From an uncultured Anaerolineales bacterium (GTDB lineage: Bacteria > Chloroflexota > Anaerolineae > Anaerolineales > UBA11858), in NCBI GenBank assembly GCA_964406305.1, contig CAYORF010000002.1, positions 130 through 64,129 on the forward strand: a DNA stretch of 64,000 bases. Reading direction: 5' to 3'. The notes beneath the pieces were generated by a model. It was not told the origin of the DNA, ran no database searches, and worked only from the letters and a program-made list of their open reading frames with translations. Below are positions 24,883-52,858 of the stretch, piece after piece; the stretch's first letter is position 1; each line of letters starts with the position of its first letter. Made by a program: the position numbers and the translations under genes.

Positions 24883-26205
24883 TCACGTCGCCTTATTAAT
24901 AACCTTATTAATAAGGTCCAGATCAGGCGGAAGCTCAACTGGTGAATTCTTATACCGGGATGTGACCTCTTTCAAACTATCCTCATGATAACCAATTTTG
25001 AATTCGGTAAATTTCAAACCATGTGCTGTAGATATCACAACAACCTGCTCATTTTCCTGGATATCCCCCCTTTTGATCATCTTCAATAATACCCCTAGCG
25101 CGACACCTGTTTGTGGACAAGTATACAGCCCGGTCGTGTCAGCAAGCGCAGCTGCGTTAGCCAGCTCATCTTCTGTTGCCTGATCCACAATGCCATCAAA
25201 AGACTTTAACACTTTCACCGCCCGTTCATAACTCACTGGATCCCCAATTTGGATCGCGGAAGCGGATGTAGGTTTGGCCTCCACCGGATGATAGTCCTTA
25301 AATTCTGTCTGATAGCTTAAGTAAAGTGGGTTTGCATTGGCTGCTTGAGCACATGCAATCCGGGGCAATTGGTCTACTAAACCTAAATCTTTCATCATGA
25401 CCAATCCCCGACCGAGGGCGCTCACATTCCCGAGATTTCCCGCAGGGATTATTATCCAATCGGGTAATTTCCAGTTAAATTGCTGGGCGATCTCTATTGC
25501 AATCGTCTTTTGCCCCTCAATGCGCAGTGAATTCATCGAATTCGCCAGGTAAATTGTAGGATCCTGGGTTAACTTTTCCACAATAGCCATACAGCCATCA
25601 AAATCTGTATCCAACGCAAGCACTAGGGCACCATTAGCAATCGGCTGCACCAACTGGGCCATCGATACTTTCCCTTTTGGCAACAGGATTACTGCAGGAA
25701 TTCCCGCCGCAGCAGCATATGCAGACAGGGCAGCGGAAGTATCTCCAGTGGAGGCACAAGCTACAGCTCGAATAGGTTGACCGTCGTTAATCATTTGATT
25801 GACAACCGAAACGAGTACAGTCATACCCAGATCCTTAAAGGATCCTGTATGACTGATGCCACATTGTTTTACCCATAAATCAGGTAAGCCAATGTTTTGA
25901 CCAAGCTTCTGGGCCTGAAAACAATTCGTATGGCCCTCATACAGGGAAATAATATTATCACTGTCGATTTGGGGACACACCCATTCCTTTTTCCCCCAAA
26001 CACCGCTCCCATAGGGCCATTGATTGGTGCGGGTTCGCTGGTCAAATAATTCCTTCCACTCCAAACCACTGCGATTCCCGAGTGCATCCAGGTCATGTTC
26101 GATATCCAGCAATCCACCACATTCCGGACAATGGTACATTACATCGTAAATTGAATACCTCTCACCACAGCCCCGGACACAAGTAAGCCAACTATCATAC
26201 TTCAT
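24883..26205 (-). CDS. thrC: Threonine synthase (long form with an N-terminal zinc-ribbon-like CxxC pairs)
   Basis: 440 aa. Contains the [13 protein letters not shown]-lysine motif. It is the last gene of the hom-lysC-asd-X-thrC unit. Confidence 0.92.
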
Positions 26206-26220
26206 AACTCTCTCCTCATC

Positions 26221-27402
26221 TCACTCACCAACAACATAGGTAATTGTCTTATGAAGGGGAAGGTGGTCCTGATCAGCCAAATCCTTCCCAGGGAAACATG
26301 CTTCGTCTGGTTTATCAGAGAGGCCAAAAAGCAAAGCACCGTTATTCTTCCAGCGCAGTGCCATCTCACAAACCTCATGGGTAATAACCAATTCATTATC
26401 CAATAATTCTGTGACGTTCTCCTGGTTTGCGGTGGTTCCCATCCTAGCTGTAGTGGTTAAGTATTCCTGGTAGCGGAAGGTTTTAAATGGTGTGGGATCG
26501 CCAGATTGAACAAGTGCATTGAAACTATCATGGACTTCCCTTAATGGCTGGGAAAGCCCCTCCAACTGGTCGTTAACCCGAGCAAGAAACTGATTAAAAG
26601 TTATGATTTCTTTTCTAGCCAGTAGATCCAGCAGTGAATCAAGTGTAAACAAATCGCTACCCAGGATTAAGCATGTGTACGCCAGATAATCCTGATTATC
26701 GGTTGTAAACGGATGGTATGCTTCTTGATTAAGAAGCTCATACGCCCGCTGGAATCCTTCCAGGTCAAATGCCTGTCCCAATAAATTTCCTACCGTTTGT
26801 TTGACAGCATTTACTCGGGCCTGGTTGATCACCTGGTCATTACGTCCCCTGGCCCCAAGAGCCGTCTTGTCCAGATCTACAATGACGGCTGTACCTTCTC
26901 CCATCAGAAAACCTTGGTTACGGCAATATACCTCAAAATCTTTCAGAGCTGACCATCGATTTGCCAGATAAAGAGTCTTGTTTGAATGACCGATCAAATC
27001 CACAGACGGAGGAAGCTGATTTTCCGCAGCAATAAATGCTAATCCCGGCCAATTCCCTGCATCACATATAGTTAAAAATGCATTACCGTCATTCAGCTGA
27101 GTATCCCCAAGATAAACTAGCTGTTGAATTGAGAAGTTTGGATTAACCAGATTGGCCGCTGCCCGCAACAGCTGAACAACAACTTCCGCGTAGGCAGGTT
27201 TTCCTTTTCGCGGGAACTTCCCGGTCGGAATATTCACTGAATTCCTGATCTTTTCGAATCTGGGCAATCTAGCGTCAACAGGATCCAGATTCCGATAGAC
27301 GATCATGTCCCCTAAGATTTCATGAAGTGAGGTACTTCCATATATTTTCATAATCAATCCAGTCAATTTGGTATTTCTGTTGTTATTGGATTCAGTTTTC
27401 AA
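26221..27402 (-). CDS. Hypothetical protein with HAD-superfamily-like motifs in the order III-IV-I-II
   Basis: 393 aa from a TTG start that overlaps the asd stop; an alternative ATG lies at 27351. It contains RKGKPAYAEVVVQLL (motif III-like), LVYLGDTQLND (IV-like), VIVDLDKTAL (I) and LLFGLSDKPD (II-like). It is separated from the thrC start by 15 nt that include a GAGGAGAG SD. Confidence 0.6.
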   Translation of the reverse strand: MKTESNNNRNTKLTGLIMKIYGSTSLHEILGDMIVYRNLDPVDARLPRFEKIRNSVNIPTGKFPRKGKPAYAEVVVQLLRAAANLVNPNFSIQQLVYLGDTQLNDGNAFLTICDAGNWPGLAFIAAENQLPPSVDLIGHSNKTLYLANRWSALKDFEVYCRNQGFLMGEGTAVIVDLDKTALGARGRNDQVINQARVNAVKQTVGNLLGQAFDLEGFQRAYELLNQEAYHPFTTDNQDYLAYTCLILGSDLFTLDSLLDLLARKEIITFNQFLARVNDQLEGLSQPLREVHDSFNALVQSGDPTPFKTFRYQEYLTTTARMGTTANQENVTELLDNELVITHEVCEMALRWKNNGALLFGLSDKPDEACFPGKDLADQDHLPLHKTITYVVGE

Positions 27403-28498
27403 TAATCGGCTGAAGATAGCCTTTTGCTTTCAGCAGCTCGGCACTCAGAATCGCACCACCAGCTGCTCCGCGGACGGTATTATGCGAAAGAGCCGAAAAT
27501 CTGATATCCAATAAAGGGCAATCACGCAAACGGCCAACCGAGATTGCCATTCCATTTCCCGCTTCTCTATCTTTAGCAGGTTGAGGCCGATCAACTTCGT
27601 TCCGAACCAAAATGGGAGGGTGCGGGGCAGAAGGCAAGTTCAATACCTGCGGCTCACCTTCAAACGAGGACCAGATATTTAGTATTTCTTCTAAAGCAGG
27701 TTGATCATCTCTGAATTTTAAACTGACGCTGGCCAAGTGACCATGTCTGACCGGTACCCGGTTGCAGGAAACTGAGAGAACCAGAGAATCAAGATCGACA
27801 AATTTGTCATTCTGGATTGTTCCCAGGATTTTTAAGGGTTCCCGCTCACTTTTTTCCTCTTCACCATTTATATAGGGAATGACATTATCAATCATTCCTA
27901 TCGCAGCCATACCCGGGTATCCCGCTCCCGATACTGCCTGAAGAGTGGTGACCAGTAAACTTTCTACTGGAAACCCGGCTGAAATTAAGGCGTAGACGGG
28001 AGGAATAAAACTTTGGATGCTGCAGTTCGGTTTAACAACGATAAAACCCTTTTCCCAACCTCGGTTTTGTCGTTGAGCAGGAATAATATCGAGGTGTTGC
28101 GGGTTGACTTCCGGAATTATCATTGGAACATCCGCACTAAACCGATGAGCCGAATTATTGGAAACAACCGGCATTTTTTCTGCGTACAGCTCTTCAAGTT
28201 TCCGGATTTTCTCTTTCTCCATATTGAAAGCAGAGAACACAAAATCACAGGCGTTGGAGGCATTCTCAACTTCCAGTACAGAATTGACCGTTATATTCTT
28301 AACTTGCTCAGGGATCTCACCCTCAACCAACCAGCGGCCTGCCACAGCCTTTTCATATTCCTTTCCTGCGGAATGCTGGGAAGCTGCAAGATAACAAACC
28401 TCGAACCAGGGATGATCATTTAATAATCGAATGAAATTTTGACCTACCATCCCTGTTGCCCCCAGAATACCGACCCGGAGTTTCATTTTCTTGTTCAT
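27392..28498 (-). CDS. asd: Aspartate-semialdehyde dehydrogenase
   Basis: 368 aa. Contains GILGATGMVGQ and KPNCSIQ (active-site Cys). Confidence 0.92.
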   Translation of the reverse strand: MNKKMKLRVGILGATGMVGQNFIRLLNDHPWFEVCYLAASQHSAGKEYEKAVAGRWLVEGEIPEQVKNITVNSVLEVENASNACDFVFSAFNMEKEKIRKLEELYAEKMPVVSNNSAHRFSADVPMIIPEVNPQHLDIIPAQRQNRGWEKGFIVVKPNCSIQSFIPPVYALISAGFPVESLLVTTLQAVSGAGYPGMAAIGMIDNVIPYINGEEEKSEREPLKILGTIQNDKFVDLDSLVLSVSCNRVPVRHGHLASVSLKFRDDQPALEEILNIWSSFEGEPQVLNLPSAPHPPILVRNEVDRPQPAKDREAGNGMAISVGRLRDCPLLDIRFSALSHNTVRGAAGGAILSAELLKAKGYLQPIIEN

Positions 28499-29935
28499 TT
28501 AGCCTGCCTTTCCGTTTATATATTCTCCAGCATCTTTAAGAATAGCTTTGTGGATCTGGCGCACAGCCTGCTCCCCATCTTTCGCCGCAATGGCCAATGA
28601 GATGCTGCACTCTGAAGAGCCTTGGGCAATTGCGATGACATTGATGTCTCCTGTCGCCAGTGCACCAAAAATTCGAGCTCCAACTCCTGGTGTATTACGA
28701 AGACCAGCTCCCACTGCAGTGACAATCACCACATTATCCTTGGACCAGATTCTTTCAATATCCTTCCTTTCCAATTCTCGGGCCATCTCTTCCTGCAAAG
28801 CATGGAGAACTGAGTCTACGTTTTCCATCGGTAGAAGAAAAGAGATCGATTGTTCGGAGGATGCCTGGGTGATCATTAACACACTGGCTCCCTGGCTAGC
28901 GACAGCAGCAAAGGTCCGGGCTGCAATCCCGGGTATACCCATCATGCCCCGGCCCTCCACATTGATCATACTTAAACCTTCGATAAGTGTGACCGCTTTT
29001 ACGGTATTCTTTGCCATTTTTGGATTATGGACGATTAAAGTTCCTGGATGGTCGGCATTAGTGGTGTTCTTGACTCGCAGCGGAATACCCTGCTCCACAA
29101 CCGGCTGGATGGTTCGGGGGTGAACCACCTTGGCGCCAAAGTAGGCCAATTCGCTCACCTCGTTATAGGACAACAACGGGAGGGATTTCGCCTCGGGAAC
29201 AATTCGCGGGTCTGAAGTCATGACCCCATCCACATCTGTCCAGATCCAAACCTCGTCGGCTTTCAGGCAAACTCCTAGAATTGAGGCGCTGAAATCGCTG
29301 CCTCCCCTTCCCAATGTTGTGGTTACCCCAGATTCAGTGGCTGCCATAAAACCTGTGACCACTGGTACCTGATCTTTTTCCAACAACGGGACCAACACAT
29401 TTCCGATATGCTTGCAAGTTAGATCCATTATCGGAACTGCATTCTGGAATTTATTGTCTGTAATGATCAATTCAGTGGAATCGACCGCTTGGCTAGATAT
29501 TCCAAGCTGACGAAGATAAGCTGCCATGATTCGGGCATTGATTCTCTCCCCAAAAGAGGAGATCGTATCAAGGGCCCGCGGGGTACATTCTCCCAGCACA
29601 TATATACTTTGACAGAAGGCAGCAAAATTATCAAGATATTGATTGACAGAAGCGCGTATTGAGGCTTGTTCCCCACTGGCATCCAAAAGGTCATTCAATA
29701 CAAGGTAGTGTTTGACCCTAAGCTGTTCTACAATACCTTGAAAGGTTTGGTCATCTCCCTGGGATGCTGTCAGGGCTCCATTGATCAATAAATCGGTTAC
29801 ACCGCTCATAGCTGAAACGACGACGGTCATACGGTCCCAATCTTTTTTTTGATCCAATACTATTGCGGCTGCTTGCCCATGAGCTTTAAGGCTGCCCACT
29901 GAAGTACCTCCGAATTTCATGACCAATGTGCTCAT
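28499..29935 (-). CDS. lysC: Aspartate kinase with tandem C-terminal ACT domains
   Basis: 478 aa. Starts LVMKFGGTSVGS and contains TLGRGGSD. Confidence 0.92.
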   Translation of the reverse strand: MSTLVMKFGGTSVGSLKAHGQAAAIVLDQKKDWDRMTVVVSAMSGVTDLLINGALTASQGDDQTFQGIVEQLRVKHYLVLNDLLDASGEQASIRASVNQYLDNFAAFCQSIYVLGECTPRALDTISSFGERINARIMAAYLRQLGISSQAVDSTELIITDNKFQNAVPIMDLTCKHIGNVLVPLLEKDQVPVVTGFMAATESGVTTTLGRGGSDFSASILGVCLKADEVWIWTDVDGVMTSDPRIVPEAKSLPLLSYNEVSELAYFGAKVVHPRTIQPVVEQGIPLRVKNTTNADHPGTLIVHNPKMAKNTVKAVTLIEGLSMINVEGRGMMGIPGIAARTFAAVASQGASVLMITQASSEQSISFLLPMENVDSVLHALQEEMARELERKDIERIWSKDNVVIVTAVGAGLRNTPGVGARIFGALATGDINVIAIAQGSSECSISLAIAAKDGEQAVRQIHKAILKDAGEYINGKAG

Positions 29936-29954
29936 TCTTTCCTCCTAACGAAGC

Positions 29955-31034
29955 TTAGCCCCTTTGATTTCTTTGGGCTAGTTTAATGACATCTCCCAGC
30001 ACTCCTGCTGCCGTTACTGCTGGACCCGCCCCGGGACCCGAAATAATTAGTGGGTTCTCAAAATACCGCTTTGTTTGTATTGAAATATAGTTTGCCGGAC
30101 CCTGCAGTGTGCCCAGTGAACTCGCTCGGTTAACGGATCTCAACCCGACATCTCCTTCGTCGGCACTGATCGTGGCAACATAACGAAGGGTTTTATTACT
30201 TGCCAGAGCTGATTCGAAACGGGATCTATATTCGTCATCTAGAGAGTGCATTTTTGATAGAAACGAATCCAGTGGTATATTGGCTAAATCTTCCGGATAG
30301 AGCGGATGAGTCTGAAGATCCTCTTCCGTCAGGGACCAACCAGCCGTGCGAGCTAATATAAGTGCCTTTCTGGCTACATCCTTACCACTTAAGTCAATCC
30401 GAGGATCTGGTTCAGCATAACCCATTTCACAAGCAGTTAATACAGCTTCTGAATAAGATACCTTTTGCTCCAGTTCGGTACACAGGTATCCCAATGTTCC
30501 GCTAAAACATCCTTCGAAGGCAGTGATCTGATCACCAGTATCCAGTAAATAGTTCAGGGTCTCGATCAGCGGCAATCCAGCACCCGCTGTGCACTCATAG
30601 CGGACATTGGGACTCTCATAGAAAACGCGAGCCTGCTGCCAGGGACCAGTTAATGGTATCTTGTTTGCCAGCACCACGCCGAATCCGTTTTCCAGGGTTT
30701 CCCTGAGAAAGGGTTCTGTATCTGAAGAAGCTGTTACATCGATAACAATCAACCCTTGCTGGGAAATCTCAGCCAAAGCTGGATGGGCGCTGAAGTTTTT
30801 TTGGGATGAGAGCTCTTTTCCCTTTAGCTCTTCATCGATGACTGACTGCAGCGTTCCCCAAGCTAAACCTTCGGGGTTCACCAGGGCACCGTTACTGTTC
30901 GCAATGACAATAGGCACAAGAGAAAAACCTGTCCGCTGGGTGATGGTTTGTCCGTATATCAGAATTTGGGAGATCAGTTCTTTTCCAACTGTCCCTGCTC
31001 CCAAACAAACCAGTGGGATCTTTTGTATCTTCAT
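29955..31034 (-). CDS. hom: Homoserine dehydrogenase
   Basis: The start was trimmed to MKIQKIPLVCLGAGTVGKE, behind the SD AGGAGA. The track ORF extends into the T-box leader. Confidence 0.88.
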   Translation of the reverse strand: MKIQKIPLVCLGAGTVGKELISQILIYGQTITQRTGFSLVPIVIANSNGALVNPEGLAWGTLQSVIDEELKGKELSSQKNFSAHPALAEISQQGLIVIDVTASSDTEPFLRETLENGFGVVLANKIPLTGPWQQARVFYESPNVRYECTAGAGLPLIETLNYLLDTGDQITAFEGCFSGTLGYLCTELEQKVSYSEAVLTACEMGYAEPDPRIDLSGKDVARKALILARTAGWSLTEEDLQTHPLYPEDLANIPLDSFLSKMHSLDDEYRSRFESALASNKTLRYVATISADEGDVGLRSVNRASSLGTLQGPANYISIQTKRYFENPLIISGPGAGPAVTAAGVLGDVIKLAQRNQRG

Positions 31035-31044
31035 ATGACCTCTC

Positions 31045-31320
31045 TTTCTCCTTAAACAAAAACCACGTCCAAAAGGGACGCGGCTCTTTTCGCGCGGTTC
31101 CACCCAACTTCAATGACGATCACTCGTCAGGCACTCTTTTAAGGATAACGGGTTGCCCCGGAGCCCCATACTCTCATTAACAATGATTTAGGGAACCCAC
31201 TCATGGATGGTTTTCACCTTTGCCTTCACTATAAGGGTTTTCAGCCGGTGACCCTCATTCTCTGGAGTTATCTCAAAGGATACTCGTTCCACTCAACGCT
31301 TTTTCATATTGTGATATTAG
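31045..31320 (-). promoter_or_regulatory. T-box riboswitch leader; probable Thr (ACC) specifier
   Basis: On the minus-strand RNA, Stem I is formed by GGAAC/GTTCC and CCUUUG/CAAAGG, with an AGUA element, an AGAGA box and the specifier-loop string UGAAAACCA. The T-box motif is UUGGGUGGAACCGCG (complement of 31091-31107). The terminator is CCGCGUCC-CUUUU-GGACGUGG followed by UUUUUGUUU. Confidence 0.8.
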
Positions 31321-31526: not shown

Positions 31527-31669
31527 TAATGAATTTCATATCTAGATCACCTGAAACCAGAAATCACCTCGCGATCACACTGCCTATGGGGATGCCCAAG
31601 GCTCTCAATCGAGAGCCAATTTGGATTGGGTCTGGTTAATCGTTAAGATATATTATTTTAATTTAATTA
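31527..31669 (+). promoter_or_regulatory. Unclassified metA leader containing a possible leaderless 36-codon ORF (31529..31639)
   Basis: An ATG lies 8 nt after the -10 hexamer. There are three ATCAC(C/A) repeats (31546, 31563, 31574) and a hairpin GGCTCTC-AATC-GAGAGCC. I recognised no S-box or T-box motifs. Confidence 0.4.
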
Positions 31670-31703
31670 ATAACCGCCCAATTACAGGCGGTTATTTTTT
31701 TTT
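31670..31703 (+). terminator. Intrinsic terminator within the metA leader
   Basis: Stem ATAACCGCC / loop CAATTACA / stem GGCGGTTAT, followed by a run of 8 further T. It lies 65 nt upstream of the metA ATG. Confidence 0.75.
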
Positions 31704-31767
31704 AATCCAACAACAGATACTTTGTAACAACTCAAAAGATATCAGATATCACCCGAGGACCACCATT

Positions 31768-32688
31768 ATGCCAATCAAGATTCCAGACCGATTACCCGCA
31801 AAAGAAATTCTAATTAAAGAGAACATTTTTGTAATGGATGAAAACAGGGCTTTGAGTCAGGACATTCGCCCAATCAGGATAGCCATTCTGAATCTGATGC
31901 CAACAAAAATTACGACTGAAGCACAATTGTTTCGATTGATCGGTAATACACCACTGCAAGTCGAACCTGTGCTCGTCCGTATGAACTTACATGAAAGCAA
32001 GAACACTCCGAGAGAGCATATGCTCACATTCTATAAACCATTTGATGAGATCAGGGATGAAAAGTTCGATGGGCTGATCGTCACCGGGGCACCGGTAGAA
32101 CATCTCAAGTTTGAGGAAGTAGATTACTGGGAGGAATTGACAGAGATCTTCACCTGGGCCTTAAATAATGTTTTCGCCCATCTTTATATCTGCTGGGCAG
32201 CCCAGGCTGCTCTTTACCAGCAGTTTGGAATTCCCAAACACCCGCTGCCAGCCAAGAAATTCGGTGCATTTACACATAGGGTGACTAAACGTAATGTAAA
32301 GCTGTTACGAGGTTTTGATGATATCTTTTTTGCTCCGCATTCACGTCATACCGAAATTCGCCAGGAAGATATTGAAAAAGAACCGCGAGTAGAGGTTCTG
32401 GTAGATTCGTCGGAAGCGGGCATCTTAATCGCGGGAACAATCGATGAAAGACAGCTCTTTGTCACCGGTCATTATGAATACGATCCCCTCACATTAAAGG
32501 AAGAATATGATCGTGACGTTAAGGCCAATTTACCGATAACGGTTCCGGCTAACTATTTCCCTGGTAATGATCCCACCAAAGAACCTGTTGTTCGATGGCG
32601 CAGCCATGCAAACCTCCTATTCGCCAATTGGATTAACTACTATGTGTATCAGGAAACACCTTTTAACCTCGACCATCTACATCAATAA
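31768..32688 (+). CDS. metA: Homoserine O-acyltransferase (MetA family)
   Basis: The start was trimmed to [15 protein letters not shown]. Contains [11 protein letters not shown], typical of MetA. Confidence 0.9.
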
Positions 32689-34014
<1,326 letters not shown>

Positions 34015-34790: not shown

Positions 34791-36154
34791 GTTAGGGAAA
34801 CTTGAAAAGTGAACACTTATAAACTTCAAAAGTGAACCCTAAAACCCATCAATGGCAGCAATACAGCGTGCACCATTTTTTCACTCCACCATATTCGAAT
34901 ATGCATCACCCGCTTAGCTGTGTCCGGAACCATGTGAACATCGACATATTCTCGTAGAGGCACTTTGGGTACTTCAATCTCATGATTGAATAGAGAAATT
35001 CTGCGGTATCCATTGATCATCCTTTGAGTGCGCAAGCAGAACACATCTAATGGCGAAGTGTAGGGCTTAGGAAGCGAGAACTTCCGGAAAAGACTGTTCC
35101 CAGATTTCAGAGCTCGTTCAAAACGAATGCTTGGGATTTCACGGGTAGTCGAATGGACCTGATGGTTGTTATAACGGTCGATCTCATCTCTCAAGACACC
35201 CCTACAATCCTCAAACTCAGATATCTCTTCATAAATACAAGTTCTCACCATGCGGTCCTGCAGCCAGCGGTAAGGTCTCTCGACCTTGCCTTTTGCTTGA
35301 GGGGAAAGAGCGTAGGAGACATCCACGTTTATCAGCCGCATCATCTTGCCCCACTGAGTATCCACGTCATCGGTTTCGAGAACATGTCTTCGCCAAAAGC
35401 TATCCCTTCCCTGAACGAAACGAAATACCCGCAAGGAGTCCACATAGTAACGCAAGGGCAATCCATAGGTCATGATCAAGGCCTGGGTAGACTGGATGTG
35501 AGTCCAGGTGGTCTCCGCAGGGAAAAAGTCAGCGAAAAGGATCTTACGACTGTAGTCATCGATGGAGGTAATCAAGGTCCACTTCTTTTTGGACAGGGGA
35601 GACCACATATGAAGGGAGGCGTCATGCTGTACCAATGCACCAATGGAAGCGGTCAATACCTCACGGTCATGAACCTTTCTTTTCCTGCGAGGTTTGTGGC
35701 AGTCCAGTTTCTTGGCCCGGTCAATGATGGTGGTGATGGACACTTCGATCCCTTCCTTATAAAGTCGATCTCTTAGTGCTGTGTAGTTATATCCAGAGAT
35801 CGGCAAATCTGGGTTTTCTATAATCTCTTTCTCCCGTAGTAATGCCTTCTCAACCTCGGATTCCACTTCAGCAGACAATTTGGCAGGAGATTTCCTCTGA
35901 TAAGCGATGGAGAAAGTCTCTGGCCCTTGCCGATAGGTTTTCAGCAAGGCGAAAAACCGTGTTTTACCGATACCCAGAATCTCCTGAATATCGGCTCTTC
36001 TTATCTTGCCCTGGCTATACCTTTGCAGTAATACCTTGATCTGTTCAATAGTGAAGCTCTTATGTAGCTGACCCATTGATTTCTCCTTTTTTCAAGGATA
36101 AATCTATCAGGGTTTGGTAGTAGTGTAGGTGTTCACTTTTCAACTTTATATAAC
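34791..36154 (-). mobile_element. Complete IS; the most diverged member of the same family
   Basis: The ends are GTTAGGGAAAC...TTTATATAAC. Subterminal AAAGTGAAC(A/C) motifs are present. The same 17-mer flanks both sides. Confidence 0.85.
34826..36076 (-). CDS. DDE transposase (rve type), paralog
   Basis: 416 aa, colinear with the other two transposases. The HDAS, YYVDSLRVF and GKVERPYRWLQDR blocks are conserved. Confidence 0.85.
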   Translation of the reverse strand: MGQLHKSFTIEQIKVLLQRYSQGKIRRADIQEILGIGKTRFFALLKTYRQGPETFSIAYQRKSPAKLSAEVESEVEKALLREKEIIENPDLPISGYNYTALRDRLYKEGIEVSITTIIDRAKKLDCHKPRRKRKVHDREVLTASIGALVQHDASLHMWSPLSKKKWTLITSIDDYSRKILFADFFPAETTWTHIQSTQALIMTYGLPLRYYVDSLRVFRFVQGRDSFWRRHVLETDDVDTQWGKMMRLINVDVSYALSPQAKGKVERPYRWLQDRMVRTCIYEEISEFEDCRGVLRDEIDRYNNHQVHSTTREIPSIRFERALKSGNSLFRKFSLPKPYTSPLDVFCLRTQRMINGYRRISLFNHEIEVPKVPLREYVDVHMVPDTAKRVMHIRIWWSEKMVHAVLLPLMGFRVHF

Positions 36155-36171: not shown

Positions 36172-37570
36172 GTTAGCAAAAGATGAAAAGTGGACACCTA
36201 TAAAGTTCAAAAGTGGACACTGAATCCCTGCAAAGGCAGGGAGACAGAATGAACCATCTTCTTGTTCCACCAGATGCGGATGTCCATAAGATCCTTCACT
36301 TCATCAGGCACCAGATGGATGTCAACAAGTTTCTGTAGAGGAACATTAGGGACTTCAATAACGTGTTTGAATAGAGAAATCCGACGGTATCTATTTACCC
36401 GGCGTTGCTCTCTAATACAAAAAACATCTTTCGGCGAAGTATAGGGCGGAGGTAGAGTTAGCTTGCGGAAGAGGCTGTTTCCCGATATCCTGGCTTTTTC
36501 AAACCGGACCTGGGGAATTTCACCGGTGGTTGAATGCACCTGGTGGTTGTTGTAACGGTCAAGTTCAGCTTTCAAAACACTGCGGACCTCATCTTTTTGG
36601 GATAGTTTTTCGTAAACGCATGTGCGGACGATACGATCCTGCAGCCAGCGATAGGGTCTCTCAACTTTGCCTTTTGCCTGCGGGGAAAGAGCATAACTGA
36701 CATCGACACCCAGCAGGCGCATCATCTTTCCCCATTGAGTATCAACATCGTCAGTTTCAAGCACATGTTTGCGCCAAACACTATCTCTACCCTGAACAAA
36801 ACGGAATACACGTAAAGAATCAACATAGTACCGCAAAGGAATCCCATATTGCTGGCACAGGGCCTGGGCCGCCCGAATATGGGCCCAGGTAGTCTCCCTG
36901 GAAACGAAGTCGGCATACAGGAGCTTGCGGCTGAAATCATCAATCGAAGTGATCAGGGTCCATTTCTCCTCCGCAAAGGGGGACCACTTATGTGTGGAAG
37001 CATCATGTTGGATTAGCGCACCTATGGATGAAGTTAGCACTTCCCGGTCATGAGCTTTTCTCTTTTTTCGCGGTTTATGACAATCAAGCTTTTTTGCCCG
37101 ATTGATGATGGTTGGTACAGAGACTTCGATACCGTTCTCTTTCAAGCGATCCTTCATCGCTGAGTAGTTGTATCCCGAGATTGGCAGGTCAGGATCTTCA
37201 ACAACGGCTTTCTCCTGAAGTAACGCTTTTTCTATCTCTGCTTCTGCTCCAGGTGAGATCCTGGCGTGTGTTTTCCGTTGATAGGCAATCGTGAAATGAT
37301 CTGGATCGTTTCGATATTCTTTCAGTAAAACGAAGAAGTGCGACTTGCCAATACCTATCATTTCTTGGAGATCAGTTCTGCTCATTTGTCCCTGGCGGTA
37401 ACTCTTGAATAAAAGCTTGATTTGTTCATCGGTGAAACGTTTGTGGAGCTGTGACATGGGTTCCTCCAGTTTCTATTGGAGGAGAAATCGTATATTATCC
37501 CTTCAAGCTTGTCAAAATCAGGTGTCCAGTTTTCAGGTTTAAACTGTCCACTTTTGAATTTTAAATAACA
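36172..37570 (-). mobile_element. Complete IS; close relative of IS copy 1
   Basis: The ends are GTTAGCAAAAG...TTTTAAATAACA, with the same subterminal TGGACA motifs as copy 1. Confidence 0.85.
36207..37457 (-). CDS. DDE transposase (rve type), paralog
   Basis: 416 aa. It is collinear with the 194..1444 protein and differs by scattered substitutions. Confidence 0.85.
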   Translation of the reverse strand: MSQLHKRFTDEQIKLLFKSYRQGQMSRTDLQEMIGIGKSHFFVLLKEYRNDPDHFTIAYQRKTHARISPGAEAEIEKALLQEKAVVEDPDLPISGYNYSAMKDRLKENGIEVSVPTIINRAKKLDCHKPRKKRKAHDREVLTSSIGALIQHDASTHKWSPFAEEKWTLITSIDDFSRKLLYADFVSRETTWAHIRAAQALCQQYGIPLRYYVDSLRVFRFVQGRDSVWRKHVLETDDVDTQWGKMMRLLGVDVSYALSPQAKGKVERPYRWLQDRIVRTCVYEKLSQKDEVRSVLKAELDRYNNHQVHSTTGEIPQVRFEKARISGNSLFRKLTLPPPYTSPKDVFCIREQRRVNRYRRISLFKHVIEVPNVPLQKLVDIHLVPDEVKDLMDIRIWWNKKMVHSVSLPLQGFSVHF

Positions 37571-44708: not shown

Positions 44709-45872
44709 ATGTGTAAAGATAATATCCAAGAATTCAAAATCATCGAGTCGACCTTACGAGAAGGGGAGCAATTCGTTGGTGCAAATTTTACCACCGGGCA
44801 AAAGATGGAAATTGCTCAGGCCCTTGACGATTTTGGCGTGGAGTATCTGGAACTTACTTCACCCATGGTCTCCCCCCAAAGTTATGAAGATATCAAGCAA
44901 ATTGCAAGTATGGGGCTGAAGGCCAAGATCCTGACCCATATTCGCTGCAGTAAAAGCGACGCGGCTCGGGCATTGGAGCTGCCCTTGGATGGAGTAGATA
45001 TCGTGATCGGAACAAGTTCTATGCTGCGGAAAATTTCCCACGGCAAGGAGATCCCTCAAATCATTGCCTTGGCTGAGGAAGTCATAGCATATATCAAAGA
45101 ACAACGACCTGAGCTGGAGATTCGGTTTAGCACAGAGGATTCCTTTCGAAGCGAGTCGGAAGACCTCTGGGAGGTATATCAGGTGGTTGATAGTATGGGT
45201 ATTGACCGGGTAGGGATTGCCGACACAGTGGGAGTTGCTACGCCCTTTGACGTATACGAACTAGCTTCTAAAATAAAGGGTTTGGTAAATGCCGAGTTGG
45301 AATTTCATGGTCATAACGATTCTGGATGTGCCATCGCAAATAGCTATGCTGCCCTCCTAGCTGGTGTGACTTGCATCGATACCAGCGTGTTAGGGATTGG
45401 GGAGCGAAATGGAATCACACCCCTGGGTGGTTTCATCGCTCGTCTTTATGCCACCGATCCTGATTTCATCCGCAATAAGTATAACCTGAAGACCCTCACG
45501 CGAGTGGACAAATTGGTAGCCGAATTAGTGGGTGTTGACATTCCCTTCAACAACTTCATCACGGGAATCACGGCCTTCACCCACAAAGCCGGCATCCATG
45601 CCAAAGCTATCTTGAACGACCCCCGGACTTATGAAATCATTGACCCCAAAGATTTTGGTCTGAGTCGTTATATATCGGTTGCCCACCGTTTGACCGGTTG
45701 GCATGCCATCAAATTGCGAGCCGAGCAGTTGGGGATTGAAATGAATGAAGAGAAAATCAAACGAGTTACCAGCCATGTCAAGGTGCTTGCTGACGAGAAG
45801 CCATTATCACTGGATGACGTGGATGCTGTTCTCAAACGCTGGGGCAGTAATGGACAAGATTATATAGATTGA
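44709..45872 (+). CDS. hcs: Homocitrate synthase, LYS20/Thermus type
   Basis: 387 aa. Contains [12 protein letters not shown] and [17 protein letters not shown]. Confidence 0.85.
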
Positions 45873-45886
45873 AAAGGAAAGGACCT

Positions 45887-47083
45887 ATGAGCGAACAGAA
45901 ATCATCACAGACAATGGAAGCGTATCCGGAAGAAGGGATGAAATCGAAGATCAAGGGACCGGTGTACATCGATGATACTACCTTACGCGATGGGGAACAA
46001 ACCGCTGGTGTAGTTTTTGCTAATGAGGAAAAAATTCACATTGCCAAAATGTTATCCAGGATTGGGGTTCATCAAATTGAAGTTGGCATTCCAACTATGG
46101 GAGGCGATGAGAAAGAAGCCATCAAACAGATCGTGGATCTTGAACTCCCTACCAGTATTCTCGCTTGGAATCGGGCAGTGATCAGTGACATAAAGCATTC
46201 TCTCGATTGTGGTGTAGATGCTGTGGCTGTCTCTATTTCTGCCTCGGACATCCACATCGAAAACAAGTTGCGCCGGGACCGGCAGTGGGTCTTGGACTCC
46301 ATCCTGAGTGCTGTAGAATTCGCCAAAGACCATCAGCTTTATGTTTCTGTGAATGCTGAGGATGCCTCCCGCGCCGACCCTGAATTCCTGATTGAATTTG
46401 CCAATGCAGCCAAGCAGTCAGGGGCTGACCGGCTCCGTTACTGCGATACAGTCGGCATCCTTGATCCTCTGGAAACCTACAAACGAGTAAAAACCTTGAT
46501 CCAGGAAGTGGATCTGCCGATTGAAATGCACACACATAACGATTTCGGGATGGCCACAGCCAACGCGATTGCCGGACTTGAGGCTGGTGCGACCTATGTT
46601 AATACCACAGTAAATGGATTAGGTGAACGAGCGGGAAATGCCGCTTTGGAAGAATTGGTAATGGCACTTCAATATACTGTAGGAGTCGAGATGGATATCC
46701 AGACCTCGCTTTTCCGTGATCTTGGGGAATATGTCGCTTTGGCTTCAGGGCGTATGCTGCCAGCCTGGAAACCGATTGTGGGAAGCAACCTTTTCGTTTA
46801 CGAATCCGAAGGACGAGCTAGCGGTGTGATCCGCGACCCAACGACGTACGAGATCTTTTGGCCTGGCGAGGTGGGTTTGTTGCGCCGATTCAGTGTAGGA
46901 AAATACTCAGGTCCCAGCGTCATTCGCCGCAAGCTTCGGGAGCAGGGGTATCACCCCTCCAAAGAGGAAGTCCAGAAGCTGGTACCCATCATGCGGTCCC
47001 GCTCGATTGCCTTGAAACGGTCTTTATTTGACAATGAGGTGGTTGAAGTTTATTCAATGTTGAGAGAGAGGAGAGATGTATGA
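45887..47083 (+). CDS. NifV/AksA-like 2-oxoacid:acetyl-CoA condensing enzyme, paralog A
   Basis: Contains [14 protein letters not shown] and HTHNDFGMATANAIAGL. It lacks a LeuA-type C-terminal regulatory domain. I chose the ATG at 45887 behind AAAGGAAAGGA; the track offers a TTG at 45869. Confidence 0.8.
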   Translation: MSEQKSSQTMEAYPEEGMKSKIKGPVYIDDTTLRDGEQTAGVVFANEEKIHIAKMLSRIGVHQIEVGIPTMGGDEKEAIKQIVDLELPTSILAWNRAVISDIKHSLDCGVDAVAVSISASDIHIENKLRRDRQWVLDSILSAVEFAKDHQLYVSVNAEDASRADPEFLIEFANAAKQSGADRLRYCDTVGILDPLETYKRVKTLIQEVDLPIEMHTHNDFGMATANAIAGLEAGATYVNTTVNGLGERAGNAALEELVMALQYTVGVEMDIQTSLFRDLGEYVALASGRMLPAWKPIVGSNLFVYESEGRASGVIRDPTTYEIFWPGEVGLLRRFSVGKYSGPSVIRRKLREQGYHPSKEEVQKLVPIMRSRSIALKRSLFDNEVVEVYSMLRERRDV

Positions 47084-48243
47084 GCAGGTTATCGAACATT
47101 AGATTATTGGATACTACCCTGCGGGACGGAGAACAGGCGGTAGGTGTAATCTTTACTCCTCGAGAGAAAAGGCAAATTTCTTCCATACTGGCGGCCATTG
47201 GCATTCCTGCTGTTGAGGTTGGTTTCCCTGCCTTGGGACCTGAGGAAAAAGCCTGTATTCTTGCTGTTGTGGATGCTGGTATCATGACTAAAGATGGAAA
47301 TCCCTTGGAGGTCAGCGCCTTTGCAAGAGCAAGGCGGGAAGATGTGAAAGATGCAGCTGATTGTCACGTGGATAGTGTCATTATTTCCATTTCTACCTCT
47401 GATACTCATATTGAACGCAAGTTTCAGGCCGATCAAGCGTGGGTCTTAGAACAAGTGAAAGAGGCTGCAGAGGAAGCAGAAAAACACAATCTGGCCTTTA
47501 CTATAAGTGCTGAAGATGCCTCTCGAACTGAACTTAGCTTTTTAATTGAGTTTTTTCGTCTAGCTGAGGAAATCGGGGCTGTGAGGGTGCGCTACTGTGA
47601 CTCCCTGGGTGTTGAGGATCCTTACACCAGCTACCGGCGGATCAAATACATCCGGCAAGAAACTTCCCTTCCTATAGAAGTGCACATGCACAATGATTTT
47701 GGGATGGCCACGGCCAATGTCATGGCTGGGATACGGGCTGGGGCGAGTTCTGTGGTCGGTTCCATTGGAGGACTTGGGGAACGGACAGGTAATTCCCCGA
47801 TAGAAGAGGTAGTGATGGCTTTGAAGCATCTGTACGGAATGGATTTGGGCATTGACACCTCTCAATTCCGTGAAGTGGCTGAATATGTGGCTCAAGCGAG
47901 CCAGCGGGCTATCCCCATCTGGAAAGCCATTGTTGGGACTAATGTTTTTGCCCATGAGTCCGGGATTCACGCAGATGGCATCCTCAAGAACCCAGATAGT
48001 TATGAAGCCTTCAAGCCTGAAGAGGTAGGGTTAGAACGTCAAATTGTGATTGGCAAGCATTCTGGCACCCAGTCGCTGAAGCATAAATTCCTGGCCGGAT
48101 TTAGAATTGAACTGGATGATGAGACGGCCCAGGAATTGCTGGAAAAGGTGCGTTCCACAACCGTGGAGCTTAAGAGGCCGCTTTTCAATAAGGAATTGAT
48201 ACTGTTGTATGAAGACACAAATTCAAAGCCAAGTAAAGAGTGA
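47080..48243 (+). CDS. NifV/AksA-like 2-oxoacid:acetyl-CoA condensing enzyme, paralog B
   Basis: 387 aa. Contains [14 protein letters not shown] and HMHNDFGMATANVMAGI. ATGA overlap with paralog A. Confidence 0.8.
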   Translation: MSRLSNIRLLDTTLRDGEQAVGVIFTPREKRQISSILAAIGIPAVEVGFPALGPEEKACILAVVDAGIMTKDGNPLEVSAFARARREDVKDAADCHVDSVIISISTSDTHIERKFQADQAWVLEQVKEAAEEAEKHNLAFTISAEDASRTELSFLIEFFRLAEEIGAVRVRYCDSLGVEDPYTSYRRIKYIRQETSLPIEVHMHNDFGMATANVMAGIRAGASSVVGSIGGLGERTGNSPIEEVVMALKHLYGMDLGIDTSQFREVAEYVAQASQRAIPIWKAIVGTNVFAHESGIHADGILKNPDSYEAFKPEEVGLERQIVIGKHSGTQSLKHKFLAGFRIELDDETAQELLEKVRSTTVELKRPLFNKELILLYEDTNSKPSKE

Positions 48244-51082: not shown

Positions 51083-52858
51083 ATGGGAATACAACCAGAC
51101 GAGTTTAAGTTACTAGAAGATAAAGCCATCATTTATTCCACTGGCAGGATCTGTGAGACATCTGGTGAATTTCTCAGGAGTCAACCATTCAGAACCTTTC
51201 TGGAAACTGTTTTGGGGAATCTTACTGATAGAAATTCACGCCTGATAAACATTTTTAGCTCTCACCCCATTAATGAAAAGACCATCACACTCTTAATTGA
51301 TATCTTTTATTATCTGACCATATTAGACCAAAGTGTGATTCCTAATATCCTACCTGAGTCGGAAGTGTTTTTTAAAGATCCAAATCTTTTAACTGAATTT
51401 GTCGAATACTTGTATAACGCCTGGCGTGATTACGATCGGATACTCATCGTCTCCGGCTTTCAGGGAGAAGCGTTAGACGACAGGCCGTACCGGACGTTCA
51501 ACGAAACCGTGGAGAAGTTGATGCATTTAGTCAGGGGAACCTATCGAGACATTAAAGAAAACATCGATAGACAGCATCCTCGTATTTTTCGTCAGGCCAG
51601 GGCTGGGGTGAACATTGCCACTATTGTCTCGAAGAAAGCTTTCATGTCAGCATGGGTGGATGACTTTGGTCCTCCATACACAAAATTGCAGCCAATTCCC
51701 ATCATCCGGCATGTGCTGTTGTATCCCCCGCTGGTACTTAATCCACCCATGAACCGGCGAACTGGACAATTTCAGCGTGTGGACGAGAACCCCCTGGATC
51801 GAATAGAACTCAATCAGGGAGAGTGGATCTGCTATCCTGCAAAGGTTGGGGAGTTGCTGATTACGACCTATATCCATGAGAAATTTCTCGAATTAGGGCT
51901 TTCTCTATGCAACCTGTTTGAACTTGCCAGCGATGAGGATCTGGAAAAACAACCAGACGCTGTGTATTTGTTTGGCGTACCAGGGGACGTCCTAGATTGT
52001 TATGGATCGCTGCCCACGGTTTTCTATGATGACCAGGAGGGGGATATATTGGTGGGTGCTGTCCCCAACGAGGACCGTTTCGGTTATTTTGGGTATTTGA
52101 AGAAGATGATACTGACTTTACACAACATTAAGATGATGAAAAGAGGTCGCATGCCATTTCATGGAGCGATGGTCGAAATCATATTGAATGACAAGACCAA
52201 CACCATTGTCCTCGTCGGCGATAGTGGTGCAGGGAAATCTGAGACATTGGAGGCTTTCCGGGTGTTGTGTGAAGGTGAGCTCCAGGACATGGTCATCATT
52301 GCGGATGACATGGGTACGATCAATATCGAAAACGGAATAGCAAAGGGATATGGCACGGAGATTGGTGCCTTTATCCGTTTGGATGATTTGCAGCCAGGGT
52401 ACGAGTTTGGGCAGATGGGACGAGCTATATTTATGAGCCCAAACAAAACCAATGCCCGGCTATTGCTGCCAGTGGTCTCACATCTTGATGTAGTGCGAGG
52501 GAGCAAGATTGATATGATCTTCTACGCCAATAACTACCAGGAGGTGAATGAGGATTATCAGATCATCGAGCGCTTTAGCGACAGTGAGTCAGCCCTGGAG
52601 GTGTTCCGGGAAGGAATAGTAATGAGTAAGGGGACAACTACATCGGAGGGTATTACCAAGACCTATTTTGCAAATGTCTTCGGTCCTCCACAATACAAGG
52701 ACTTGCATGAGGAAATTGCCCAATCAACTTTCGAACACCTCTTTGATCAGGATGTTTTCTTGGGTCAAATCAGGACCCGGCTGGGGCTTCCAGGCTGGGA
52801 AATAAAGGGTCCGGAAGCTGCAGCCCGGGCGATGATTGAATTAATTACAGAAGCTTAG
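51083..52858 (+). CDS. Hypothetical 591-aa protein with a C-terminal HprK/PEPCK-like P-loop kinase region and an unrecognised N-terminal 350 aa
   Basis: Contains MPFHGAMVEIILNDKTNTIVLVGDSGAGKSETLEAF (P-loop at nt 52217-52243), followed by MVIIADDMGTI and GYGTEIGAFIRL. This string order resembles the HPr kinase/phosphorylase and ATP-PEPCK nucleotide-binding cores. Confidence 0.6.
   Translation: MGIQPDEFKLLEDKAIIYSTGRICETSGEFLRSQPFRTFLETVLGNLTDRNSRLINIFSSHPINEKTITLLIDIFYYLTILDQSVIPNILPESEVFFKDPNLLTEFVEYLYNAWRDYDRILIVSGFQGEALDDRPYRTFNETVEKLMHLVRGTYRDIKENIDRQHPRIFRQARAGVNIATIVSKKAFMSAWVDDFGPPYTKLQPIPIIRHVLLYPPLVLNPPMNRRTGQFQRVDENPLDRIELNQGEWICYPAKVGELLITTYIHEKFLELGLSLCNLFELASDEDLEKQPDAVYLFGVPGDVLDCYGSLPTVFYDDQEGDILVGAVPNEDRFGYFGYLKKMILTLHNIKMMKRGRMPFHGAMVEIILNDKTNTIVLVGDSGAGKSETLEAFRVLCEGELQDMVIIADDMGTINIENGIAKGYGTEIGAFIRLDDLQPGYEFGQMGRAIFMSPNKTNARLLLPVVSHLDVVRGSKIDMIFYANNYQEVNEDYQIIERFSDSESALEVFREGIVMSKGTTTSEGITKTYFANVFGPPQYKDLHEEIAQSTFEHLFDQDVFLGQIRTRLGLPGWEIKGPEAAARAMIELITEA

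What the first reader, a model, noticed from the sequence alone, without database searches (positions are those of the whole stretch)
26221..27402. HAD-motif protein with apparently permuted motif order sits in the slot where homoserine kinase is expected
The T-box-controlled unit hom-lysC-asd-X-thrC encodes every step from aspartate to threonine except homoserine kinase. No GHMP-type thrB is present in the window. X is tightly embedded: its TTG start overlaps the asd stop, and its stop lies 15 nt before thrC. X carries strings resembling all four HAD motifs, in the order III (RKGKPAYAEVVVQLL, about residue 65), IV (LVYLGDTQLND, about residue 95), I (VIVDLDKTAL, residues 173-182) and II (LLFGLSDKPD, about residue 357). 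This suggests a circular permutation of the HAD fold with a cap of about 170 aa. One HAD enzyme, ThrH of Pseudomonas, is already known to phosphorylate homoserine by phosphotransfer. A HAD-derived non-orthologous replacement of ThrB is therefore a concrete hypothesis.
Basis: inference. Interest (0 to 1): 0.72.

Follow-up and report, generated by a model that had tools for sequence, protein, structure and literature searches.

The report
Permuted HAD-like enzyme replacing homoserine kinase
A conserved gene of unknown function sits in the threonine operon of Anaerolineae bacteria exactly where homoserine kinase should be; it carries the catalytic motifs of HAD phosphotransferases in rotated order, which makes it a strong, testable candidate for one of the still-missing homoserine kinases.

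Summary
X is a real gene on the minus strand. Homologues put its start at the ATG at 27351 (376 aa), not the TTG at 27402. It lies in a T-box-controlled hom-lysC-asd-X-thrC operon whose specifier is most likely ACC (Thr).

X matches nothing in Pfam, NCBIfam or PDB sequences. It nevertheless founds a large family: more than 3,200 proteins, 405 clusters at 50% identity, and at least 519 GTDB species, almost all Anaerolineae.

All four HAD motif residues are nearly invariant, in the order III-IV-I-II. In a confident AlphaFold model they sit at strand ends. Profile comparison ranks E. coli HADs at the top of an 86-protein panel (p = 3e-5). Foldseek could not confirm the permuted fold.

Gene context is the main functional evidence. 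66 of 80 loci keep X beside lysC, asd or thrC, and so does a 28%-identical relative. No locus holds an intact thrB. One locus holds a decayed thrB right after X.

The most likely function is formation of O-phosphohomoserine through an aspartyl-phosphate intermediate, with an unknown phosphoryl donor (confidence about 0.5). Genome-wide absence of thrB and enzyme activity remain untested.

The parts
31071..31305 (-). T-box leader controlling the operon. The specifier loop reads GAAAACCA. The specifier is most likely ACC (Thr), followed by the conserved purine.
   Evidence: Rfam RF00230 scores 103.5 bits against a gathering score of 93. The window's second T-box reads GAA-UGG-A at the same place ahead of trpE, which validates the reading. 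The same GAAAACCA is found in the T-boxes of L001, L006 and L024; L023 reads GAAAACCC.
29955..31034 (-). hom, homoserine dehydrogenase. Start taken at the ATG (MKIQKIPLV) downstream of the T-box.
   Evidence: Pfam Homoserine_dh 2.1e-42; NCBIfam homoserine dehydrogenase models.
28499..29935 (-). lysC, aspartate kinase with two ACT domains.
   Evidence: Pfam AA_kinase 9.8e-48 and ACT_9; NCBIfam NF004938 1e-154.
27392..28498 (-). asd, aspartate-semialdehyde dehydrogenase of the archaeal/asd_EA type.
   Evidence: NCBIfam NF006416 6.9e-138 and TIGR00978 1e-111.
26221..27351 (-). X, a 376-aa protein of an uncharacterised family and the candidate O-phosphohomoserine-forming enzyme. The mechanical ORF extends to a TTG at 27402.
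   Evidence: Nearly all of the 120 best homologues are about 376 aa and align from this ATG. No Pfam, NCBIfam or PDB hit. AlphaFold pLDDT 90.7, pTM 0.86.
27166..27213 (-). HAD motif III-like segment PRKGKPAYAEVVVQLL (residues 47-62). K49 precedes helix 52-69.
   Evidence: P47, R48 and K49 are at least 90% conserved in 76 diverse members. Secondary structure.
27088..27120 (-). HAD motif IV-like segment LVYLGDTQLND (residues 78-88), at the end of strand 77-82.
   Evidence: G82 is invariant; D83 and D88 are at least 90% conserved. hhalign aligns it to Gph LFVGDSRNDIQA.
26857..26886 (-). HAD motif I-like segment VIVDLDKTAL (residues 156-165). D159, the putative nucleophile, ends strand 154-159. 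D161 is the Asp+2 acid/base. A short helix at 160-164 resembles the HAD 'squiggle'.
   Evidence: D159, D161 and T163 are at least 90% conserved. Best hhalign local hit to HAD motif I has P = 0.006-0.012. Secondary structure.
26344..26856 (-). All-helical insert ('cap', residues about 166-336) between motifs I and II. It carries the conserved residues G169, R170, R179, T216, D218, N219, D221, T287, R293, E296, T300 and E326.
   Evidence: Helices 172-336 in the model; conservation.
26305..26334 (-). HAD motif II-like segment LLFGLSDKPD (residues 340-349). S345 follows strand 340-344.
   Evidence: S345 is at least 90% conserved; D346 and P348 are invariant. hhalign aligns residues 314-348 to Gph ...GLPLGLVTNKP.
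24883..26205 (-). thrC, threonine synthase (440-aa type), starting 15 nt after the stop of X.
   Evidence: Pfam PALP 6.4e-55; TIGR00260 thrC 211.7 bits against a cut-off of 167.1.

Best explanation
X is the founding member of an uncharacterised protein family that is widespread in Anaerolineae. Its core is a HAD-type (Rossmannoid) phosphoryl-transfer domain whose sequence has been circularly permuted. The Lys motif (III) and the acidic GDxxxD motif (IV) come first. Next comes DxDxT (I), then a helical cap of about 170 aa, and finally the Ser motif (II).

X is encoded inside a threonine-responsive T-box operon, hom-lysC-asd-X-thrC. It most likely supplies O-phospho-L-homoserine to threonine synthase, and so takes over the job of homoserine kinase ThrB.

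Inferred mechanism:
- Mg2+ is held by D159, D83 and D88.
- D159 is phosphorylated by a donor.
- K49 and S345 stabilise the transferring phosphoryl group.
- D161 (Asp+2) deprotonates the gamma-hydroxyl of homoserine, which then takes the phosphoryl group from D159.
- The cap, with its conserved Arg, Asp, Asn and Thr residues, binds the amino-acid acceptor and the donor and excludes water.

The donor is unknown. It could be ATP, or a phosphorylated metabolite as in ThrH.

Shown here: the operon, the conserved motifs, the conserved synteny and the absence of an intact thrB in the neighbourhoods. Inferred: the fold permutation, the catalytic roles and the substrate.
For: Family and motifs:
- More than 3,244 homologues, nearly all about 376 aa and named 'hypothetical'.
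- 405 clusters at 50% identity and at least 519 GTDB species, almost all Anaerolineae or other Chloroflexota.
- K49, D83, D88, D159, D161, T163 and S345 are at least 90% conserved among 76 members that are 25-50% identical to X.
- In the pLDDT 90.7 model these residues lie at strand C-termini or before a helix, and a one-turn helix follows motif I.

Link to HAD:
- The top three alternative hhalign hits are motifs I, II and III/IV, and they are colinear only after permutation.
- Gph and YigB rank 1 and 2 of 86 E. coli proteins, and all eight HADs are enriched at the top (Mann-Whitney p = 3.1e-5).

Function:
- 66 of 80 loci have hom, lysC, asd or thrC in the same direction next to X. Among loci with full flanks the figure is 40 of 49.
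- A 28%-identical relative sits in thrC-lysC-asd-X.
- T-boxes with the same GAAAACC specifier loop precede four homologous operons.
- No intact thrB occurs in 80 loci plus the window.
- The only thrB-like gene, immediately after X in L025, has lost 22 of 81 conserved positions, including the GHMP loop (GSGLGSSAA to QAGLGANAA). Controls lost 0-4.
- Other Anaerolineales carry thrC-thrB with no X within 8-10 kb.
- Methionine genes in the window (metA and a Cys/Met PLP enzyme) use the O-acyl route, so O-phosphohomoserine is needed only by ThrC.
- thrB is still an unexplained gap in 16 of 208 prototrophs (bioRxiv 10.1101/2024.10.14.618325).
Against: - No significant sequence or profile match to any HAD model or PDB chain, with or without permutation.
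- The individual hhalign hits are weak (P = 0.006-0.07).
- Foldseek found no HAD match for the good model. The permuted-order model was unreliable, so the fold claim rests on motifs.
- Most HAD enzymes with an Asp+2 residue are phosphatases, not kinases.
- Whether X-bearing genomes lack thrB, homK or thrH elsewhere could not be tested.
- Canonical ThrB does exist in some Anaerolineales.
- About 14 of 80 loci show X away from thr genes.
- Long-form relatives sit among two-component-system genes, so the scaffold is not tied to threonine in every member.
Confidence: 0.5

Rival explanations
1. X is a HAD-like phosphatase rather than a phosphotransferase. It could be a non-orthologous phosphoserine phosphatase (SerB analogue) or a housekeeping phosphatase that is merely co-transcribed with the aspartate-pathway genes. 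Homoserine would then be phosphorylated by a kinase encoded elsewhere.
For: The DxD (Asp+2) form of motif I is typical of HAD phosphatases (established knowledge of the superfamily; motif seen). serB is missing as often as thrB in prototrophs. The known HAD enzyme ThrH is both a phosphoserine phosphatase and a phosphotransferase. Absence of thrB was shown only for about 10 kb of flank per genome.
Against: The aspartate-to-threonine route has no dephosphorylation step, so a phosphatase acting on aspartyl phosphate or O-phosphohomoserine in this operon would be futile. Linkage is to lysC, asd and thrC in 66 of 80 loci, with no ser gene identified beside X in the loci examined. The operon is under a Thr-type T-box. 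The decayed thrB beside X points to displacement.
Confidence: 0.2
2. X does form O-phosphohomoserine but is not a HAD relative. On this view the motif resemblance is convergent or accidental, and X is a kinase with a new fold and its own nucleotide-binding site.
For: There is no significant Pfam, NCBIfam or PDB sequence hit and no significant Foldseek hit, even for a pLDDT 90.7 model. Each hhalign hit is weak on its own.
Against: All four HAD signature residues are nearly invariant, each in its typical local context (hhhhDxDxT, hhhhS, K before a helix, hhhhGDxxxD...AG), and each lies at a strand end. HADs are enriched at the top of the panel with p = 3e-5. A sequential aligner such as Foldseek is expected to miss a permuted fold.
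Confidence: 0.12
3. X has a non-catalytic or different role linked to the aspartate pathway, for example as a regulator, a sensor of a pathway intermediate, or an enzyme of another branch. Its position next to thrC would then reflect co-regulation only.
For: Some loci place X next to an aminotransferase and dcd, or in unrelated surroundings. Long forms occur between histidine-kinase and response-regulator genes.
Against: The full catalytic motif set is strictly conserved. The slot between asd and thrC is kept across more than 50% sequence divergence and with two different thrC types. No other candidate for the missing step is present in the operon.
Confidence: 0.1

Closest known systems
ThrH of Pseudomonas aeruginosa (phosphoserine:homoserine phosphotransferase / phosphoserine phosphatase; HAD subfamily IB, TIGR02137)
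   Same: It is a HAD-type active site that can make O-phosphohomoserine without a GHMP kinase and can substitute for ThrB (cited). The mechanism proposed for X is the same: an aspartyl-phosphate intermediate followed by transfer to the homoserine hydroxyl.
   Different: X shows no detectable sequence similarity to it. ThrH has the canonical motif order and, from my own knowledge, a small four-helix cap and a length of about 205 aa. X is 376 aa, has permuted motif order and carries a cap of about 170 aa. From my own knowledge, ThrH is an accessory enzyme outside the thr operon, whereas X is embedded in the operon.
HomK / ThrB2 (BT2402, TIGR02535; related to cofactor-independent phosphoglycerate mutase)
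   Same: It is a non-orthologous replacement of ThrB that was recognised by co-localisation with hom, asd and thrC. It was later confirmed by complementation and is thought to use a donor other than ATP. X is supported by the same kind of genomic evidence.
   Different: It belongs to an unrelated fold, the metalloenzyme/alkaline-phosphatase superfamily. X does not match TIGR02535 or any related model.
ThrB, the GHMP-family homoserine kinase (PF00288/PF08544, TIGR00191)
   Same: It performs the pathway step proposed for X and, in many bacteria, occupies the same kind of operon slot next to thrC. Other Chloroflexota have thrC-thrB.
   Different: There is no homology: X has no GHMP domains. ThrB is ATP-dependent and forms no covalent intermediate. 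One short local resemblance (ThrB LFALCDKPETA against X LFGLSDKPDEA) is at chance level.
HAD superfamily phosphatases and phosphotransferases of subfamily IA (for example E. coli Gph, YigB, HxpA/B)
   Same: They share the four catalytic motifs with the same local sequence context. They are the best hhalign partners in the 86-protein panel.
   Different: X has the motif order III-IV-I-II instead of I-II-III-IV. It has a much larger all-helical cap, only a short helix between strands S2 and S3, and no match to any HAD Pfam model.

Membership tests
HAD superfamily | Motif I, hhhhDxDxT, at the C-terminal end of a beta strand, with a nucleophilic Asp and an Asp+2 | tested here: met
   AVIVDLDKTAL is present. 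D159, D161 and T163 are at least 90% conserved in 76 members. D159 is the last residue of strand 154-159, and a short helix at 160-164 follows.
HAD superfamily | Motif II, a Ser or Thr at the end of a hydrophobic strand | tested here: met
   In ALLFGLSDKP, S345 is at least 90% conserved and D346 and P348 are invariant. The strand spans 340-344.
HAD superfamily | Motif III Lys, and motif IV acidic residues (GDxxxD) at the end of a strand | tested here: met
   K49 lies before helix 52-69. G82-D83 end strand 77-82, and D88 follows. All are at least 90% conserved.
HAD superfamily | Canonical sequential order of motifs, I-II-III-IV | tested here: not met
   The order in X and in all family members is III-IV-I-II.
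HAD superfamily | Significant match to HAD sequence models (PF00702, PF13419, PF12710 and others) or to solved HAD structures by sequence | tested here: not met
   No hit at E up to 1-10 for the native or the permuted sequence or profile. Only weak local hhalign hits were found, although HADs are enriched in rank (p = 3e-5).
HAD superfamily | Rossmannoid three-layer fold, with squiggle and flap, that brings the four motifs into one site | tested here: inconclusive
   Foldseek against PDB gave no match at E up to 0.001 for the native-order model. The permuted-order model had pTM 0.47 and a low-confidence core.
ThrH family (TIGR02137) | Sequence membership in the bifunctional phosphoserine phosphatase / homoserine phosphotransferase family | tested here: not met
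   The only NCBIfam hit was an irrelevant L17 model at E = 0.14. No PDB chain matched apart from a lectin at E = 0.44.
GHMP homoserine kinase (ThrB) | GHMP_kinases_N and GHMP_kinases_C domains, with the PxGSGLGSSAA loop | tested here: not met
   No Pfam or NCBIfam hit. The Chloroflexota ThrB HMM does not hit X.
HomK/ThrB2 (TIGR02535) and APH-type ThrB (TIGR00938) | Match to the curated family model | tested here: not met
   No NCBIfam hit for X.
Homoserine kinase / phosphotransferase (functional class) | Catalyses formation of O-phospho-L-homoserine and is required for threonine synthesis | not testable with these tools
   Only genomic context is available. Complementation and enzyme assays are needed.

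The most novel reading that the evidence does not exclude
X is a naturally circularly permuted HAD enzyme that makes O-phosphohomoserine by phosphotransfer from a metabolite rather than from ATP. One candidate donor is aspartyl-4-phosphate, the product of LysC, which is encoded just upstream and in one case fused to X. LysC would then be the only ATP-using kinase of the aspartate-to-threonine route. This would be a further independent solution to the homoserine kinase step, and would explain the step in a whole bacterial class.
Probability: 0.12. Interest if true: 0.9.

Novelty: new variant of a known kind. Interest (0 to 1): 0.76.

Why it matters
Homoserine kinase is one of four steps that still account for most unexplained gaps in amino-acid biosynthesis. 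thrB is missing in 16 of 208 proven prototrophs (bioRxiv 10.1101/2024.10.14.618325). Such gaps lead to false predictions of auxotrophy in metagenome-assembled genomes.

This family would help close the threonine gap in those Anaerolineae that carry X (at least 519 GTDB species), a class that is abundant in sediments, sludge and hot springs and consists mostly of uncultured organisms.

No circularly permuted HAD was found in the literature searched here, so it may be the first described. It would also be only the second HAD known to phosphorylate homoserine.

The hypothesis can be tested directly with the thrB::kan complementation assay already used for HomK.

Tried and rejected
- Sequence searches. 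Pfam, NCBIfam and PDB sequence searches of X gave nothing, whether as a single sequence, as a profile, or as a permuted profile of 12 members. An HMM of the permuted family found no HAD-like protein among 3,012 ORFs of the fetched loci, which contain no classical HAD anyway.
- hhalign across cut points. Scanning all circular cut points never chained several motifs into one alignment, because the cap gap is too costly, so no score peak at the true cut could be shown.
- Structure. Foldseek with the native-order model returned only generic Rossmann-like hits at E of 0.06 or worse. A permuted query supported by natural N- and C-terminal fragments was accepted, but the model was weak (pLDDT 75, pTM 0.47), and Foldseek on it was uninformative.
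- Gaps between X and thrC. The 1-kb gaps seen in some loci were checked for thrB. They hold two small YdjM-family membrane ORFs instead.
- Fusions. LysC-X (P0122) and X-JAB (P0160) each occur on one short contig, so they carry little weight.
- Genome-wide co-occurrence of X with ThrB. Comparing contig lengths between the X and ThrB hit lists showed no shared contig, but both lists are truncated.
- Literature. Searches found no description of this family and no report of a permuted HAD.
Full report
**What is there**

The region 24883-31305 on the minus strand is one unit.
- A T-box leader lies at 31071-31305 (RF00230, 103.5 bits).
- It is followed by hom (29955-31034), lysC (28499-29935), asd (27392-28498), the gene in question, X, and thrC (24883-26205). 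All four neighbours are firmly assigned by Pfam and NCBIfam.
Nearly all of the 120 best homologues are about 376 aa and align from the internal Met, MKIYGSTSL. X therefore most likely starts at the ATG at 27351, 40 nt after the asd stop. The TTG at 27402 that overlaps asd is probably not used.
- The specifier loop of the T-box reads GAAAACCA. The window's second T-box reads GAA-UGG-A in front of trpE. Read in the same way, the specifier here is ACC (Thr) followed by the conserved purine. AAC cannot be formally excluded.

X matches nothing in Pfam-A, NCBIfam or the PDB sequences, yet it is not an orphan.
- More than 3,244 database proteins match it.
- The family forms 405 clusters at 50% identity.
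- It was found in at least 519 GTDB species. The best 80 are almost all Anaerolineae or other Chloroflexota MAGs.
- Every source name is 'hypothetical protein'.

The conserved positions were read from an alignment of 76 members that are 25-50% identical to X.
- Invariant residues are R20, G82, W133, R293, D346 and P348.
- At least 90% conserved are K49 (with P47 and R48), D83, D88, D159, D161, T163 and S345.
- A further set is conserved in the middle of the protein: G169, R170, R179, T216, D218, N219, D221, T287, E296, T300 and E326.

- hhhhDxDxT
- hhhhS
- K followed by a helix
- hhhhGDxxND..A...AG

Their order along the sequence is III-IV-I-II.

**Is it a permuted HAD?**

AlphaFold, given 30 homologues, produced a confident model (pLDDT 90.7, pTM 0.86). 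In it:
- D159 ends strand 154-159 and is followed by a one-turn helix, which resembles the HAD 'squiggle'.
- S345 follows strand 340-344.
- G82-D83 end strand 77-82.
- K49 precedes helix 52-69.
- Residues 172-336 are all helical, forming the 'cap' of about 170 aa.

This is the arrangement expected if the HAD chain S1-cap-S2-S3-(K helix)-S4-S5 had been cut between S3 and the K helix and rejoined.

Sequence-profile evidence agrees but is modest.
- Against a profile of E. coli Gph, HxpA and HxpB, the three best alternative local hhalign alignments of the family profile are motif I (P = 0.012), the helix-plus-strand of motif II (P = 0.021) and motif III/IV (P = 0.061). They are colinear only in the permuted frame.
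- In a panel of 86 E. coli proteins the eight HADs rank 1, 2, 7, 10, 11, 16, 27 and 29 (Mann-Whitney p = 3.1e-5).

The structural test failed to decide.
- Foldseek aligns sequentially. It found nothing significant for the good model.
- A permuted-order model could be built only with a shallow alignment of natural fragments. Its core was unreliable, with pTM 0.47.
- I could not access model coordinates to check that the six residues meet in space.

I rate 'HAD-like phosphoryl-transfer site, permuted' at about 0.8.

**What it does: genomic evidence**

- Among the 80 best loci from different species, 66 have hom, lysC, asd or thrC in the same direction next to X. Among loci with enough flank on both sides the figure is 40 of 49. 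The usual order is lysC-asd-X-thrC.
- The linkage survives deep divergence. A member only 28% identical to X lies in thrC-lysC-asd-X.
- Anaerolinea-like loci that use a different, short thrC still keep lysC-(asd)-X nearby.
- T-boxes with the same GAAAACC specifier loop precede the homologous operons in four of seven loci tested.
- An HMM built from 120 Chloroflexota GHMP homoserine kinases finds no thrB in the window, and none in 79 of the 80 loci.
- The single exception is informative. In L025 a thrB-like ORF follows X directly. It has lost 22 of 81 positions that are at least 90% conserved in the family, against 0-4 in controls. The losses include the phosphate-binding loop, GSGLGSSAA to QAGLGANAA. 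It looks like a relic of a displaced gene.
- Conversely, Chloroflexota and Anaerolineales that have an intact thrB carry it as thrC(short)-thrB, with no X within 8-10 kb.
- In one such case the flanking genes (FTCD, dcd) recur next to X and a thrB-less thrC in an X-bearing genome.
- In the window, methionine genes of the O-acylhomoserine route (metA and a Cys/Met PLP enzyme, 31621-34014) sit divergently from the T-box. O-phosphohomoserine is therefore needed only for ThrC.
- The window is a super-cluster of ilv/leu, aro, thr, met, arg, lys and trp genes. Even so, it holds no known type of homoserine kinase.

**Mechanism proposed**

By analogy with HAD chemistry (established knowledge) and with ThrH:
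- D159 would be phosphorylated by a donor, with Mg2+ held by D159, D83 and D88.
- K49 and S345 would stabilise the transferring phosphoryl group.
- D161 would act as the acid/base that activates the gamma-hydroxyl of homoserine.
- The large cap, with five conserved arginines in the protein and a DNQD/GDPTPF cluster, would bind the acceptor and the donor and exclude water.

All of this is inferred. The donor is open. An Asp at position +2 (rather than the Thr of P-type ATPases) and the precedents of ThrH and HomK make a metabolite donor plausible. One rare LysC-X fusion prompts the speculative idea that aspartyl phosphate is the donor.

**Rivals**

- A phosphatase, for example a SerB analogue, is the main alternative (0.2). 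A phosphatase would be futile inside this operon, and the relic thrB argues for displacement. Against that, absence of thrB was shown only locally.
- A non-HAD kinase of new fold (0.12).
- A non-catalytic or other role (0.1).

About 14 of 80 loci place X elsewhere, some after an aminotransferase and dcd. Long forms of about 610 aa, with an unknown N-terminal domain, sit between histidine-kinase and response-regulator genes. The scaffold therefore has other uses as well.

**Comparison with what is known, and novelty**

The known ways to phosphorylate homoserine are:
- GHMP ThrB
- the APH-type ThrB
- ThrH, a canonical small HAD

X matches the curated models or domains of none of them. It would work like ThrH, but it fails the sequence test for that family and fails the motif-order feature of canonical HADs. 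Literature searches found no description of this family and no report of a permuted HAD. thrB is still listed as missing in 8% of prototrophs. I class X as a new variant of a known kind: HAD-type phosphotransfer serving a known pathway step.

**Verdict**

It is strongly supported by context and moderately by motif and profile evidence.
- Fold superposition, genome-wide phyletic pattern and activity remain untested.
- Confidence in the full statement is about 0.5. Interest is 0.76.

Noticed in passing
L025:1551-2462 (+), directly after the X homologue at L025:393-1538: A full-length thrB-like ORF has 22 of 81 family-conserved positions replaced, including the GHMP phosphate loop (GSGLGSSAA to QAGLGANAA). 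It is apparently a decaying or repurposed homoserine kinase next to X.
   Followed up: yes
L096:8001-9830 (protein P0238); also P0228, P0244, P0250 (about 610 aa) and P0221 (816 aa): Long-form relatives of X carry an N-terminal extension of 240-430 aa with no Pfam match. P0238 lies between a GAF/HATPase histidine kinase and response-regulator genes, in a region with integrases, ParB and LuxI/LuxR. This may be a signalling phosphatase variant of the same scaffold.
   Followed up: partly
L101:10-2535 (P0122) and L100:57-1643 (P0160): There are two rare fusions. One is aspartate kinase (AA_kinase plus ACT) fused to X, beside a convergent short thrC. The other is X fused to a C-terminal Prok-JAB domain. 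Each was seen on a single short contig.
   Followed up: partly
window 194-1444 (-), 34826-36076 (-), 36207-37457 (-): Three paralogous 416-aa ORFs, 70-88% identical to each other, have no Pfam hit at 1e-5. They look like copies of an insertion-sequence transposase scattered through the biosynthetic cluster.
   Followed up: partly
window 51083-52858 (+): A 591-aa ORF with no Pfam hit lies inside the lysine (alpha-aminoadipate/LysW-type) gene block, between an isocitrate/homoisocitrate dehydrogenase-like gene and a class-III aminotransferase.
   Followed up: no
window 1-64000; second T-box at 55452-55812 (+): The whole window is an amino-acid biosynthesis super-cluster: ilvD/B/N/C, leuA/C/D/B, aro genes, thr, metA plus a Cys/Met PLP enzyme, argG/H, LysX-type ATP-grasp genes, three tandem HMGL-like synthases at 44709-48243, and trp genes. 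A second T-box with a UGG (Trp) specifier precedes trpE.
   Followed up: partly
L032:8759-9824, L050:11148-12097 and similar 1-kb gaps in L034, L051, L052, L055, L064, L074, L079: In a subgroup of loci, two small tandem YdjM-family membrane-protein ORFs (about 155 aa each) are inserted between X and thrC.
   Followed up: partly
window 26305-26334 (X residues 340-349) against E. coli ThrB residues about 266-276 (L081): There is a short local resemblance between X (LFGLSDKPDEA) and E. coli ThrB (LFALCDKPETA). It put ThrB third in the hhalign panel with a score of 26. It is at chance level for 86 comparisons but curious given the proposed function.
   Followed up: no
L049:8818-9978, L054:12-1160, L070:8674-9897: In several loci without thr genes, X lies immediately downstream of a class I/II aminotransferase (aspartate-aminotransferase-like) and dcd. 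This is another recurrent context.
   Followed up: partly
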